Assembly (NCBI RefSeq): GCF_009914755.1
Contig: NC_060928.1
Reading direction: 5' to 3' (one strand)
Length of the DNA stretch: 64,000 nucleotides
Source of the DNA: the human T2T-CHM13v2.0 reference genome, Homo sapiens
Part shown: positions 53,101 through 59,843 of the stretch, piece by piece
Layout of the letters: every line of letters begins with the position of its first letter
Position numbering within the stretch: position 1 is the stretch's first letter
Position numbers and translations under genes: made by a program
Notes under the pieces: model-generated
Told to the model about the DNA's origin: nothing
The model's database searches: none
Seen by the model: the letters and a program-made list of their open reading frames with translations, nothing else

Positions 53101-53435
53101 ATATACCACGTTTTCTTTCTTTAGTTTAAAAATGAAAGCAAATTTGTTAAGAAAGTAAAGAAATAAAAGAATGGCTACCCCATACGCAGAGCAGTAGCAT
53201 GGGCTGCTAGACTGAGTATACTTGTAGTTATTTCTTGATTGCATGCTAAACAAGGGGTGGATTATTCACCAGTTTTTAAGGAAAGGGGTGGAGATTTCCT
53301 GGAATGAGGGTTCCTCCATTTTTTTAAAGACTATATAGGGTAACTTCTGGACGTTGCTATTGCATTTGTAAACTGTCATGGCGCTGGTGGGAGTGCCTTT
53401 TAGCATTGCTAACGCATTCATAATAAGCATATAAT

Positions 53436-53724
53436 GGCTGGGTGTGGTGGCTCATACCTGTAATTCCAGCACGTTGGGAGGCCCAGGCAGGTAGATTGCT
53501 TGAGGCCAGGAGTTCGATACCAGCCTGGCCAACATGGAGAAACCCTGTCTCTATTAAAAATACAAAAAATTAGCCAAACATGTGGTGTGCACCTGGATTC
53601 CCAACTACTTGGCTGAGGCACGAGAATTGCTTGAACCCAGGAGGTGGAGGCTGCAGTGAGCTGAGATCATGCCACTGCACTCCAGCCTGGGCAACACAGT
53701 GAGACTCTGTCTCAAAAGAAAAAA
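53436..53724 (+). repeat. AluS/J inserted in MER41 U3
   Basis: TSD AGCATATAAT. Confidence 0.9.
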
Positions 53725-55457: not shown

Positions 55458-58400
55458 GGAATACTTTACAAATAGTTTCCAGATTCTGGAGAAATCAGGT
55501 AGAGAGAAACAAATACGCTTCCAATTTTGTTTATAGAAGTATACTTTACTCAATTGTTAAAAGCTGTAAATAGCTCAAAAGAAAACTTTTCTTCTCTCTG
55601 AAAACAAAACAAAGAATCAGTAACATTTTAAGCAAAAAATTATAAAGGGATTATTTCAGTCTTCTATTAGTTAAGTTCATGCAGTTAACCTCCGTTCTGC
55701 TTGATATTCATGAACATTTCAGCTTTCCATGAGAGTCCTGAAAGATTTTTCTCTATTCTAATGTCACAATCTCCAAAGTTATCAGAAACCTGCATTCAAG
55801 AGCACCTGTCAGAGTCCCATAGCTGATTATAAAACTGCCTTTTAAAGAGGATCAAAACAAGATAACAATTGTCTGTGGATGACAAAGTCTTAGGGCAGCC
55901 ACTATTAAAGCCACAATTGACTAGAAATTTTGGTTACTTCTTTGGCATACAACAACTTTACATAACAATTATAATTGTAAATAATGTACACTAAGTCAGA
56001 ATTATAGGAGTTTCCCATAATTTTGGAATATATACCAATAGCATATTTAATGAATACAGACCAAAGAAAGCCAAACACCATTTTATATTTGACAATGCTT
56101 CTTTTATGATTTTATACCAAATAAACCAAAAATAGTAAGTCATTTTTGGACTTTAGGGGACTTAATATCTAAAAGATTATTTATTTGGTCAGAAAAAGAC
56201 ATAATTTACAATATGATTTTGGAAAGTTTGTCAAATATCAAAGGTTTAGAAGACTTGGTACTATAAAATAGAATTTCAGGTCACTGTAAGTCATTCATTT
56301 AGCCAAAATGATAACTCAACAATTTTAAAAAGGCAATAACCTTTACTCATTATTAGAGAAAAGACTTAGCTTTCCAAACAATCTCTTTTCTTTCCTTTCT
56401 TTTTCCTATAGTTTATTTAAAAGGCAAATAAAATCTTTTATTATTTTTAATATTACATGAAAATTTTGTTCAAGAGAAAAAGGGGGATGTTTCCATACCT
56501 TCCAGGTGGCCAAGAGCACGTGTCTCTGATCTAAAAGTGCAAAGAGCTGAGTATTCCCCCATAACTGCTATTAATATCAGCCATCTTCAAAAGTATATTT
56601 CCTACCTACTTATTACACACCAAAACTCTCTCATAATATGAAGTAATTCCTGATACTCTCCAAAGCTGAAGACGTCAGATAATGCAATGCAAAACAGAAC
56701 AGAGCCTTAGATTTTGAGAGGGATCTATCCACTTTCAATTCCTGGGGTTTCATGAGGAAAATGGTGTTTTCCTCCCCGGCAGAGTCTGTGGTGCCTCTTC
56801 TGTTTTTCCCAAGGAGTTTCAGGCTGTTAGAAATTATCTTTGGATAATTTCTCTCATGTGTGCATCAACAGTGGCAAGAAGACAAAATGGAGAAAAACAA
56901 TTAAGTCAGCTGAGAAGAGAAAAACTTTTTCTTCAGAAAAATAAGATCCAGTAAGAGAAAAAAACATAAAGGCCTTTAAAATATATGTATAGCATGTATA
57001 TTGCTTTTAATTTAGCTGACTTTTAACCAAATATCTTATTACCAAAGTCTATCCAGAATAAACAGCAAGTATTTCTGGCTTTTGAACTTTACCAAAGGTA
57101 ACCTCCCAGGTGCTCAGAGAAAGGAAAACCCAAGACAGGAAGTCAGAAGTTGTATATGGAGGGGAAGAGGATCAGTAAATGGCAAAGGTCACACAAATAT
57201 CAACCAGAAAGTTCTCATTCCTAGGCTGAAAATGGAACCTGGGCTGCCATTGTGAAAAGACAAAGCCTTAGCTCCTAAGCTACAGCATTGGGCAGTTTCC
57301 TCTGCCCTGCCCAGAAGGACTCTAGAGGCAGCCAATTTTGAGCCTGCAAAGGCTTTTAACTGCTCAAGAGAATTTTTAGAGCTATGACATGAATTCCAAA
57401 ATTCCTGTCTCTGAATTTTGGCAGAGACCAAGAGCAAGTACTGCCATGTGGTTATGAGGACAAGCTCCTAAGGACATAAGACAAGATGAGAGGGAAATAT
57501 CATCTAATTTTTTGTTTGTTTGTTTCAGGGAAGCAAAATTTGGTAACTGACCAGTTTGCTGGGATGGCTTGGACAGTGGACTTATGGGATCCTAGGCCTG
57601 TGTTCTATCCTAAGGTACCCCTCCTTATGACAGAATGATACAGAAAGACAAATTCATAGCATAAAGTCCACCGGATTTGTTACAGTCTAACACTAGACTC
57701 ACAGATTATTTTTTCCCATTGTTCAAAACGTTGCAGAGGAGGTGAACAGTGATTTCTTTACCATTCACCCAACCAGTTTGCACAGAGAGCGAGGCCAGAA
57801 ACCTGACTGGTAAGAAATTCTTACCCTTTTGCTGGCATGCTAGATTTCTGGGTTCCCTTTTCCTCAGCACCTGTAGTGACCCTTTTTGCCACATTATAGT
57901 CCTGGGTGCCAAGCCGCAACACAAAGGAAAATCATCTTTTTCTGTTTCATAGAACCATAGGCAAAAGCCTATCAAGTTTGCAAGATGCCACCCAAGGGGT
58001 TGCATGGGTTAACCAAATTCACATTTCCCATTCTGGCCAGAGCAAAATACATGTGACAAAACACAGACATTAGCCACCCTGTTTAGCACCCAATATTGAA
58101 CTGGTGAGGCTCAAACTTGCCCCGAGTTGGGCCCTGTTATCTTTAATCCATTCAAAGTGGGGTGGAATGACCTCTAACCAGGAGTTTCAAAATGTGGCCT
58201 CTGGGTAAGATGGAAGAGCAGATGGCCTCCTTGAGTAACAGAAAAGTTAGGAAAAGGAAAGGAGAGAAAGAGAGAGAGAAAAGCATTGCTTGCAGTGTGG
58301 TGAGGAAGGTGAGCAGCTCAGGGAGGCCAGAGAAAGACCCACTGTTACCCATTGCAGAGACGGTGAATCAAAAGTTCAGGCAGCTGCTTGTCAGTCACAA

Positions 58401-59843
58401 AGGTATCTTTTCCAGCAGCCCCATAAGCTCTCAAGTTTCTTCCTTTGTGGAGAGAAAAGCTCCCCATGTCCTGTGATCCTGTACTTGCCTAATTATGTCA
58501 CCCATAGACATCAGCAAAGAGAGTAAGGCAGATTAATTCAAAGAGAATAGTGGTTAACATCCCATAATGTCAAATCCATTTTTAACCAAGAGACTTTACT
58601 GAGGGGGACCTTTAACCCCCTAAATCTTAGGAAGGACTCTAACCTTCCTAAGTTGGGCCTTGAAACCAAGTTTGGTCAAGTGTCCTTGCCTTTTATTAAG
58701 AGGGGCCTTTAGCCCTCTCTGTCTTAGGAGGGATTCTAACCCTCCTAAATTGGGTCTCTAACCCAATCCCATCATTTACCCTGGTGAAATGTACCCGCCC
58801 TCTTACCCAAAGTCAGCCAATTGATACTGCAGTCCATTTCCTTTGAGTTGGGGGTCTTCTCACTATAGTCTCTTCATGGTTTTCCAGGAAGATGTTATGG
58901 GAAAGGGGTCCCAATCCAGACTGCAAGAGAGGGTTCTTGGACATCATGCAAGAAAGAATTCTGGGTGAGTTCATAGAGTAAAATGAAAGCAAGTTTATTA
59001 AGAAAGTAAAGGAATAAAAGAATGGCTACCCCATAGGCAGAGCAGCCTATACCACATTTTCTTTATCCATTCGTCCTCTTAGGTAGATTCCATATCTTCG
59101 CTATTGAGAACAGTGCTGAAATAAACATACGGGCACAGGTATACACTTGATATGCTGGTTTCTTTTCCTTTGGATAAATTCCCAAGAGTGGGATTGCTAG
59201 ATCATGTGGTAGTTCTATTTTCAGTTTTTTGAGAAATCTTCATATTATTTTCCATAGTGGTGGGACTAATTTACATTCCCACCAATGATCTACAAATGTT
59301 CCCTTTTCTCTGCAGCCTCACCAGCATCTGTTATTCTATGTCTTTTCAGTAAGAGCCATTCTGACTGATGTGAGATGGCATCTCATTGTGGTTTTAATTT
59401 GCATTTCTCTGATTATTAGTGATGTTGAGCATTTTTTAATATATCTATTGGCCATTTGTATGTCTTTTTTTGCACAATGTCTATTCATGTTCTTTGCCCA
59501 CTTTTTAATGGGATTATTATTATTTTACTGTTGAGTTTTTCGAGCTCCTTGTGTATCCTGGATATTAATCCCCTGTCAGATGAATAGTTTGCAAATATTT
59601 TCTCCCATTCAACAGGTTGTCCCTTTACTCTGTTGATTGTTTCTTTTGCTGCGCAGAAACTTTTTAGTTTAATATAGACCCATTTGTCTATTTTGTTTCT
59701 GTTGCCTGTGCTTTTGAGGTTTTAGCCATAAAATCTTTGCCTTCACCAAAGTCCTGAAGGGTTTCCTCTACGTTTTCTTCAAGTAGCTTTGTAGTTTTGA
59801 GTCTTACATTTAAGTCTTTAATCTCTCTTGAGTTGATTTTAAG

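What the first reader, a model, noticed from the sequence alone, without database searches (positions are those of the whole stretch)
53102..59064. Full-length MER41 retroviral RNA apparently inserted by LINE-1 as a processed pseudogene
Seen: on the minus strand the element starts inside the LTR at GGCTGCTCTGCC (59047) with no U3, runs R-U5, internal, PPT, U3-R, and stops about 15 nt after the polyA-signal position with no U5. An A-rich remnant follows (AAACTAAAG, 53127-53119). It is flanked by a 17-bp TSD, TATACCAC(G/A)TTTTCTTT (53102-53118 / 59048-59064), at a TTTTCTTT/AT L1-endonuclease-like site. Established: ERV1 integrase gives complete TG..CA LTRs and 4-bp TSDs (as at 38022-38471); R-to-R structure, a tail and a long TSD are the hallmarks of L1-mobilised HERV-W processed pseudogenes. 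Inference: MER41 also spread by L1 target-primed reverse transcription. I do not recall this being described for MER41, and repeat annotation would show only fragments.
Basis: partly seen in the sequence, partly recalled or inferred. Interest (0 to 1): 0.85.

Follow-up and report, generated by a model that had tools for sequence, protein, structure and literature searches.

The report
LINE-1-made copy of MER41 retroviral RNA
This is a DNA copy of an ancient MER41 retrovirus-like RNA that the LINE-1 machinery, not a retroviral integrase, pasted into the genome, and the same genome holds dozens of sister copies although reviews name HERV-W as the only such family.

Summary
On the minus strand, 59047-53119 is an LTR-element copy that starts at the first bases of R with no U3. 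It ends about 14 nt past the decayed poly(A) signal with no U5 and carries a 10-nt A-rich tail remnant. A 17-bp target-site duplication flanks it (1 mismatch) at a TTTTCTTT|AT site inside an old dispersed repeat. One correction: the 17-mer occurs three times, because a younger Alu (52791-53100) later landed on the 3' junction and copied it again.

Other copies show the missing ~480-nt U3, so the start is a transcription start. At least 36 other independent copies begin within 3 nt of it.

The same genome holds 80 exact-signature loci where R ends in poly(A) (reversed-pattern controls: 0). Of 45 inspected, 27 are about 70-nt R-only copies. One copy (L005) lacks a canonical GT..AG intron.

The MER41 name is recalled. 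It is supported by the 43-nt STAT1-motif block that separates MER41B from MER41A.

My four literature searches found no description of this for MER41. A 2017 review calls HERV-W the sole L1-mobilised HERV group.

Verdict: new member of a known kind. Confidence 0.93. Interest 0.65.

The parts
59048..59064 (.). Target-site duplication, copy next to the element's 5' end (TATACCACATTTTCTTT).
   Evidence: Host-repeat paralogs have one copy only.
58980..59047 (-). 5' R. It starts at GGCTGCTCTGCC with no U3 upstream. AATAAA lies at 58999-58994.
58893..58979 (-). U5, ending ..TAACA.
   Evidence: LTR-only genome hits end at query positions 145-158.
58868..58886 (-). Primer-binding-site-like 19-mer, TGGAAAACCATGAAGAGAC. 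Its likeness to tRNA-Arg is recalled, not tested.
   Evidence: The site is conserved in L002-L008.
58801..58812 (-). Leader splice donor, TTTGG|GTAAGA (junction at 58807|58806). The spliced sister copy L005 uses it.
53994..58867 (-). Internal region. It is colinear with other copies and shows no detectable gag, pol or env. It holds a plus-strand Alu at about 55140-55475.
53977..53993 (-). Polypurine tract, AAAAGGAAGGGGGGAAA.
53195..53974 (-). 3' LTR U3, starting TGTCAGAGG. It contains the 43-nt block with TTCCAGGAA. A plus-strand Alu interrupts it at 53437-53726, with its own duplication AGCATATAAT.
53129..53194 (-). 3' R, 62 of 66 identical to the 5' R. The poly(A) signal has decayed to AACAAA. 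No U5 follows.
53119..53128 (-). A-rich tail remnant, TAAACTAAAG.
53102..53118 (.). Target-site duplication, copy next to the 3' end (TATACCACGTTTTCTTT).
52767..53100 (-). Younger Alu (52791-53100, T-run on the left) with the left copy of its own duplication (52767-52790). The right copy is 53101-53123 and overlaps the element's duplication and tail. This Alu is not part of the element.

Best explanation
A polyadenylated, unspliced, cap-to-poly(A)-site RNA of a MER41-type LTR element was reverse transcribed in place by LINE-1 proteins acting in trans.

How it most likely worked:
- The L1 endonuclease nicked the window's plus strand at 5'-TTTTCTTT|AT-3' inside an older dispersed repeat.
- The T-rich 3' end primed on the RNA's poly(A) tail.
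- The whole RNA (about 5.3 kb, the two later Alus excluded) was copied up to its 5' end.
- A second nick 17 nt away produced the 17-bp duplication.

The copy therefore has the structure of the RNA (R-U5 ... U3-R-An) and not of a provirus (U3-R-U5 at both ends with a 4-6 bp duplication). It has no promoter of its own.

Shown here: the structure, the duplication, the single-copy state of the target in paralogs, the recurrence of both end points in many independent loci, and a spliced sister copy.

Inferred: that L1 was the enzyme. This rests on the target motif, the length of the duplications and the tails.
For: 1. No U3 at the 5' end. Other copies carry about 480 nt of U3 just upstream of the same position.

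2. The start is a transcription start.
- 27 of 45 inspected poly(A)-ended loci start within 3 nt of it.
- 9 of 26 other leader-bearing 5' ends start at element positions 1-8, eight of them within the first 3 nt.
- An ATAAAAAT box lies about 27 nt upstream in U3-bearing copies.

3. The 3' end coincides with the poly(A) site.
- CTTGCTTTCAYTTT + 0-6 nt + A8 gave 25 loci.
- CTTGCTTTCAYTT + A8 gave 55 loci.
- The reversed-pattern control gave 0 in both searches.

4. The 17-bp duplication abuts both ends. The host-repeat paralogs have one copy.

5. The target is AT|AAAGAAAA in element orientation. Sister loci have A-rich-starting duplications of 12-23 bp in 12 of 25. By eye, 6 of 20 have duplications of 11-16 bp.

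6. L005 starts at the same base, has a 19-A tail and a 14-bp duplication. It lacks exactly the stretch that in the window copy is bounded by TTTGG|GTAAGA and TTTTCAG|.

7. L039 is a 4.96-kb R-to-R copy with a poly(A) tail and a duplication.
Against: - The window copy's own tail is only a 10-nt A-rich remnant.
- No orthologous empty site in another primate could be checked. Only paralogs of the host repeat stand in for it.
- The first two bases (GG) are not matched by the element's own 3' LTR, which reads ..GCTACTGCTCTG. They fit the other LTR subtype, or untemplated G, or later mutation. This is unresolved.
- 13 of 25 loci in the first sample had weak or no duplication by my criterion.
- L052 ends in poly(A) but shows no clear duplication.
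Confidence: 0.93

Rival explanations
1. An ordinary integrase-made provirus that later lost its 5' U3 and 3' U5 through two separate deletions.
For: The element is old and carries other damage: two Alu insertions and a decayed poly(A) signal.
Against: Two deletions would have to end exactly at the R boundaries. They would also have to create a 17-bp direct repeat of host sequence that is single-copy in paralogs. The same two boundaries recur in dozens of independent loci with poly(A) tails.
Confidence: 0.02
2. The RNA was copied and inserted without the LINE-1 endonuclease. Examples would be capture of a cDNA at a double-strand break, or another reverse transcriptase.
For: The window's tail is short. 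Some sister loci lack clear duplications.
Against: The window has a 17-bp duplication at a T-rich|A site. Most clear duplications in sister loci start with A-runs directly after the tail. This is the L1 target-primed pattern. Break-repair insertions usually lack duplications (established knowledge).
Confidence: 0.04
3. This rival concerns the about 70-nt R-only sister copies only. They were not made from short R-only RNAs. They arose from full R-to-R copies by recombination between the two 66-68-nt R repeats, or by the reverse transcriptase jumping from the 3' R to the 5' R.
For: All three routes give R + poly(A) + duplication, so the sequences seen cannot tell them apart.
Against: R-only copies are 27 of 45 inspected poly(A)-ended loci. 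Only 2 of the 25 fully mapped loci are R-to-R copies with internal sequence, while 9 of 25 are 5'-truncated or disrupted. Recombination would thus need most original insertions of a 5-6 kb RNA to have been full length. Thousands of solo LTRs can each make a cap-to-poly(A) R RNA (inference).
Confidence: 0.3

Closest known systems
HERV-W processed pseudogenes (L1-mobilised HERV-W RNA)
   Same: Both have a 5' LTR reduced to R-U5, a 3' LTR reduced to U3-R, a poly(A) tail and L1-type insertion sites. For HERV-W, the R boundaries are nt 256 and 326 of LTR17, about 71 nt (PMC5016936, passages seen). Here R is 66-70 nt. Both families sit in the HERVW9 supergroup (PMC4724089 and PMC5753468, passages seen).
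   Different: This is a different family: MER41-type LTRs and an internal part with no detectable genes. Most poly(A)-ended copies here are R-only minis (27 of 45), a class I did not see described for HERV-W in the passages read. Sequence similarity to HERV-W itself was not tested.
SINE-R / SVA: retroposons built from the 3' end of HERV-K and moved by L1 (recalled; SVA trans-mobilisation by L1 is in the title and abstract of PMC3287187 in the listing)
   Same: In both, LTR-derived sequence ending at the retroviral poly(A) site is spread by L1 with a poly(A) tail and duplications.
   Different: SINE-R starts inside env/U3. It became part of a composite, self-propagating family. The copies here are plain one-off retrocopies of complete or truncated element RNAs.
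Ordinary mRNA processed pseudogenes
   Same: Both run from cap site to poly(A) site, can lose an intron (L005), carry a tail, and have 7-20 bp duplications at TT|AAAA-like sites.
   Different: The template is a non-coding LTR-element RNA with terminal R repeats. Repeat annotation would therefore show it as a fragmented provirus rather than a retrocopy.
Integrase-made provirus or solo LTR, such as the unrelated LTR at 38022-38471
   Same: LTR sequence, primer-binding site and polypurine tract are present.
   Different: The ends are not complete TG..CA LTRs, and the duplication is 17 bp rather than 4-6 bp.

Membership tests
L1-mediated processed pseudogene (retrocopy) | The 5' end lies at the transcription start, with no promoter or U3. 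| tested here: met
   U3 is present in 16 of 26 other 5' ends and absent here. 27 of 45 poly(A)-ended loci and 8 of 26 leader-bearing 5' ends start within the same 3 nt (a ninth U3-less end starts at position 8).
L1-mediated processed pseudogene (retrocopy) | The 3' end lies at the poly(A) site and is followed by an A tail. | tested here: met
   The end point is met. The window's tail is only a 10-nt remnant. Sister loci have A8 to about A25 tails.
L1-mediated processed pseudogene (retrocopy) | A target-site duplication of about 7-20 bp. | tested here: met
   17 bp with 1 mismatch, abutting both ends.
L1-mediated processed pseudogene (retrocopy) | A TT|AAAA-like endonuclease target. | tested here: met
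   AT|AAAGAAAA in element orientation. Duplications in sister loci start A-rich. No formal logo was made.
L1-mediated processed pseudogene (retrocopy) | An empty pre-insertion site. | tested here: inconclusive
   Only paralogous copies of the host repeat were available. All 3 show a single copy of the target. Orthologs in other primates are not held.
MER41 (ERV1 LTR family) | Sequence match to the Dfam/Repbase MER41A-G and MER41-int models. | not testable with these tools
No repeat library is on hand.
MER41 (ERV1 LTR family) | LTR subtypes that differ by a 43-bp block holding a STAT1 (TTCNNNGAA) motif (MER41B versus MER41A; PMC9963469, passage seen). | tested here: met
   The window and L005 LTRs carry a 43-column block with TTCCAGGAA, or TTCTGCGAA plus TTCCTGGAA. 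L004 and L008 lack this block.
MER41 (ERV1 LTR family) | A high-copy, primate-era LTR family. | tested here: met
   1165 exact matches to a 20-mer of R, control 0. Age was not measured here.
Integrase-made provirus | Two complete LTRs (TG..CA) and a 4-6 bp duplication. | tested here: not met
HERV-W processed pseudogenes | Derived from HERV-W (HERV17/LTR17) RNA. | not tested
   No HERV-W reference was compared. The 43-nt block test and my recollection point to MER41 instead. It works like these pseudogenes but is not filed as one.

The most novel reading that the evidence does not exclude
MER41 is a second HERV group that LINE-1 mobilised on a family-wide scale. This contradicts the repeated statement that HERV-W is the sole such group.

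- A sizeable share of its 'proviruses' would be promoterless retrocopies: 9 of 26 leader-bearing 5' ends in a similarity-ranked sample.
- Its about 70-nt R region alone behaved like a small Pol II-made retroposon, with about 50 or more R-only copies.
- Those R-only copies would be fossils of promoter-proximal polyadenylation in the germ line. They mark the exact start and poly(A) sites of an LTR family now known as interferon-responsive enhancers.
Probability: 0.55. Interest if true: 0.7.

Novelty: new member of a known kind. Interest (0 to 1): 0.65.

Why it matters
- The statement that only HERV-W RNA is mobilised by L1 (PMC5537654, abstract and introduction passages) would need correcting.
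- Counts and ages of MER41 'proviruses' mix integrase-made and L1-made copies. LTR-divergence dating is invalid for the L1-made ones, because their two R ends were never identical by integration.
- The retrocopies fix the transcription start and cleavage sites of MER41 LTRs to the nucleotide. That is useful for a family studied as STAT1-bound enhancers.
- The R-only copies and the spliced copy show which MER41 RNAs existed in the germ line 45-60 million years ago (age from PMC9963469).
- Repeat annotation lists such copies as LTR fragments, so they are easy to miss.

Tried and rejected
- **Pfam on the element.** Three-frame X-read translations of the window element, L014 and L019 gave 0 families in 9 of 9 translations. 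So I could not place gag, pol or env.
- **PDB phmmer.** The window's three frames gave only Alu-exon peptides.
- **Pfam on the host-repeat flanks.** This also gave 0 of 6. Pfam silence is therefore weak evidence in DNA this decayed. The host repeat's L1 identity rests on recall plus dispersed paralogs.
- **Tree of R-U5 ends.** A tree of 27 R-U5 ends was unresolved (0 of 24 inner branches starred). The processed copies were not clustered: 7 changes against 8.2 in shuffles, with 125 of 500 shuffles as low. This gives no evidence for one master source.
- **Second internal gap of L005.** It lies next to a GTAAAG donor and a CCAG acceptor, but the junction is 4 nt off. I do not count it as a proven intron.
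- **Internal gap of L033.** It is filled with unrelated sequence and is not a splice.
- **3' ends of six further R-start copies** (L035, L036, L040, L042, L045, L049). These could not be fetched.
- **Pavlicek et al. 2002.** The paper is not held. It may say something about other HERV families that I could not see.
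Full report
**1. What is in the window**

Read on the minus strand, the element begins at 59047 with GGCTGCTCTGCC. Its parts are:

- R, 59047-58980, with AATAAA at 58999-58994.
- U5, to 58893, ending ..TAACA.
- A 19-nt primer-binding-site-like motif, 58886-58868. Its likeness to tRNA-Arg is my recollection.
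- A leader with a consensus splice donor, TTTGG|GTAAGA, at 58807|58806.
- About 4.9 kb of internal sequence.
- A polypurine tract, 53993-53977.
- A 3' LTR that starts TGTCAGAGG at 53974.
- A 3' R, 53194-53129, which is 62 of 66 identical to the 5' R.
- The tail TAAACTAAAG, 53128-53119.

There is no U3 at the 5' end and no U5 at the 3' end. Two plus-strand Alus sit inside: about 55140-55475, and 53437-53726 with its own AGCATATAAT duplication.

**2. The duplication, and a correction**

TATACCAC(G/A)TTTTCTTT abuts both ends (53102-53118 and 59048-59064). At up to 2 mismatches it occurs three times in the 64 kb and nowhere else.

The third copy (52768-52784) belongs to a younger minus-strand Alu (52791-53100). 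That Alu landed on the 3' junction. Its duplication (52767-52790 and 53101-53123) spans the 17-mer plus 4-5 nt of the element's tail. The Alu therefore came second.

The flanks are an old dispersed repeat, which I recall as the 3' part of LINE-1 ORF2. Pfam found nothing in it. Three paralogous copies in unrelated loci (L020, L024, L011) read straight through..ACCACATTTTCTTTATCCA.., with one copy of the target. This is an empty-site proxy, not an ortholog.

**3. The ends are RNA ends, not deletions**

A search of the window's own genome with the first 198 nt gave 40 scored hits out of 2245 candidates. In L002, L004, L006 and L008, about 480 nt of U3 lie directly upstream of the window's first base. 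That U3 is homologous to the window's 3' LTR.

Of the 26 other hits that run on into the leader:

- 16 have U3.
- 9 have unrelated DNA upstream and start at element positions 1-8, eight of them within the first 3 nt (L005, L035, L036, L039, L040, L042, L045, L049, L052).
- 1 is ambiguous (L048).

This sample is ranked by likeness to the window copy, so the share may be inflated.

In U3-bearing copies, an ATAAAAAT box lies about 27 nt upstream of the shared start. That is the usual TATA-to-start distance (established knowledge).

**4. Genome-wide 3' signature**

- The R end followed by 0-6 nt and A8 (CTTGCTTTCAYTTT...) matched 42 times at 25 distinct loci. The reversed control gave 0.
- CTTGCTTTCAYTT + A8 matched 55 more loci, control 0. 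Six of these, on contig 1 at 120-149 Mb, may be segmental duplicates.
- With up to 2 mismatches, a longer pattern gave 663 overlapping matches against 1 in the control. I did not de-duplicate these, and only the first 100 rows were shown.
- The plain 20-mer of R occurs 1165 times, control 0.

**5. What the poly(A)-ended loci are**

I mapped all 25 loci of the first set against the window element:

| Class | Count | Loci |
|---|---|---|
| R only, starting within 3 nt of the window's start | 14 | L009, L010, L011, L018, L020, L021, L022, L023, L024, L026, L027, L029, L030, L031 |
| Starting inside R or Alu-disrupted | 2 | L032, L013 |
| Part or all of U3 plus R, one of them (L025) with a short piece of internal sequence | 5 | L015, L016, L017, L025, L028 |
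| Long 5'-truncated copies | 2 | L014, L019 |
| Starting at R and carrying internal sequence | 2 | L012, L033 |

Twelve of the 25 have duplications of 12-23 bp with at most 1 mismatch. Eight of these abut the start exactly. Four lie within 2 to about 25 nt of the start position I had entered for the search. The other 13 are weak or absent by that criterion.

From the second set I fetched 20 of the 55 loci. These were the first in list order, after leaving out the six possible duplicates and the locus already known as L039's end:

| Class | Count | Loci |
|---|---|---|
| R only from the same start | 13 | L055, L056, L057, L058, L059, L060, L064, L066, L067, L068, L071, L072, L073 |
| Starting inside R | 1 | L074 |
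| Starting 15 nt upstream in U3, with a 15-bp duplication | 1 | L062 |
| U3 upstream, extent not fetched | 4 | L061, L063, L069, L070 |
| Alu-disrupted | 1 | L065 |

By eye, 6 of the 20 have duplications of 11-16 bp (L059, L060, L062, L067, L071, L073). Most clear duplications begin with A-runs.

**6. Sister copies with internal sequence**

- **L005.** It starts at the same base, ends in R plus 19 A, and has a 14-bp duplication (1 mismatch). It lacks exactly the stretch that in the window copy runs from the GTAAGA donor to a pyrimidine-rich ..TTTTCAG| acceptor. That makes it a spliced RNA copy. A second gap lies near GTAAAG and CCAG, but its junction is 4 nt off, so I leave it open.
- **L039.** It runs 4.96 kb from the shared start to CACTT + A8, with a duplication that shares ..TATCATGAC.
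- **L052.** It runs 5.99 kb to R + A11, but I see no clear duplication.
- **L033.** It has a 9-nt duplication with 1 mismatch.
- **L012.** It has only a weak duplication.

**7. Mechanism**

The data fit target-primed reverse transcription by LINE-1 acting in trans on MER41-type RNAs. In the window, the nick was at 5'-TTTTCTTT|AT-3' on the plus strand. Priming was on the poly(A) tail. The RNA was copied in full, and a second nick 17 nt away gave the duplication.

That L1 was the enzyme is inferred from target, duplication and tail. Nothing here tests it directly.

The R-only copies are most simply copies of about 70-nt RNAs that start at the LTR start site and are cleaved at the same LTR's poly(A) site. 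Recombination between the two R repeats of a full copy would give the same product, as would a template jump. I put those alternatives at 0.3 together.

**8. Family and coding content**

One published feature could be tested. MER41B and MER41A are said to differ by a 43-bp block holding a STAT1 motif (PMC9963469, passage seen). In one search, the window and L005 LTRs carry a 43-column block with TTCNNNGAA motifs. L004 and L008 lack it.

No Pfam family was found in any of 9 X-read frames of three copies. PDB phmmer on the window's three frames found only Alu-derived peptides. The internal part is therefore either non-coding or too decayed to read. The equal silence of the host-repeat flanks warns against leaning on this.

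A tree of 27 R-U5 ends was unresolved, and the processed copies did not cluster.

**9. What is in print**

Four full-text searches found no paper describing L1-made MER41 copies:

- MER41 with 'processed pseudogene'.
- HERV-W, LINE and other families.
- U3-R, R-U5 and L1-mediated.
- MER41 with L1-mediated, LINE-mediated or retropseudogene terms.

Passages I read:

- Vargiu et al. 2016 (PMC4724089, passages) did not separate processed pseudogenes from proviruses. They place MER41 in the HERVW9 supergroup.
- Kojima 2018 (PMC5753468, passages) lists MER41-int with MER41A, B and D-G.
- Grandi et al. 2016 (PMC5016936, passages) give the defining features of HERV-W pseudogenes.

Pavlicek et al. 2002 is not held. 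Subscription papers and repeat-database notes were not searchable, so prior mention cannot be excluded.

**10. Verdict**

The mechanism is a known one (as for HERV-W), applied to a family for which I found no description. There are two extras: abundant R-only copies and a spliced copy. I rate it a new member of a known kind, with interest 0.65.

Noticed in passing
window 52767-53123: A younger minus-strand Alu inserted at the same T-rich site as the element's 3' junction. It made a third copy of the 17-mer. Its duplication overlaps the element's tail by 4-5 nt.
   Followed up: yes
genome loci L009-L031 and L055-L073 (27 of 45 inspected): These are about 70-nt copies of the LTR's R region alone. 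They carry a poly(A) tail and L1-type duplications, and all start within 3 nt of one position. They may be fossils of promoter-proximal polyadenylation.
   Followed up: partly
L005 (G000:C6:112131866 onward), 1501-2950: A spliced sister copy: a canonical GT..AG intron of the window copy is missing. An Alu sits inside its 3' R.
   Followed up: yes
L058 (G000:C1:202863176-202863356): An R-only copy sits inside the R region of another, antisense copy of the same LTR family.
   Followed up: no
L012 7816-8034: A 5'-truncated U3-R-poly(A) fragment lies nested, in the same orientation, inside another R-start copy of the family. I found no clear duplication around it.
   Followed up: partly
window 57529-57614 and 57737-58573: Exons 2 and 3 of the predicted lncRNA LOC107986283 (hub annotation) lie wholly inside the element, antisense to it.
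   Followed up: no
window 38022-38471: A solo LTR with TG..CA ends and a 4-bp GTGG duplication. It has no similarity to the family studied here, and I did not name its family.
   Followed up: partly
G000 contig 1, 120.3-148.7 Mb: Six exact matches to the R-end + A8 pattern lie in this interval. They may be one insertion multiplied by segmental duplication. I did not fetch them.
   Followed up: no
window 59046-59047 versus 53195-53197: The element's first two bases (GG) differ from the matching bases of its own 3' LTR (..TA). L005 shows one such extra G. Untemplated G from the cap, a different source LTR and later mutation are all possible.
   Followed up: partly
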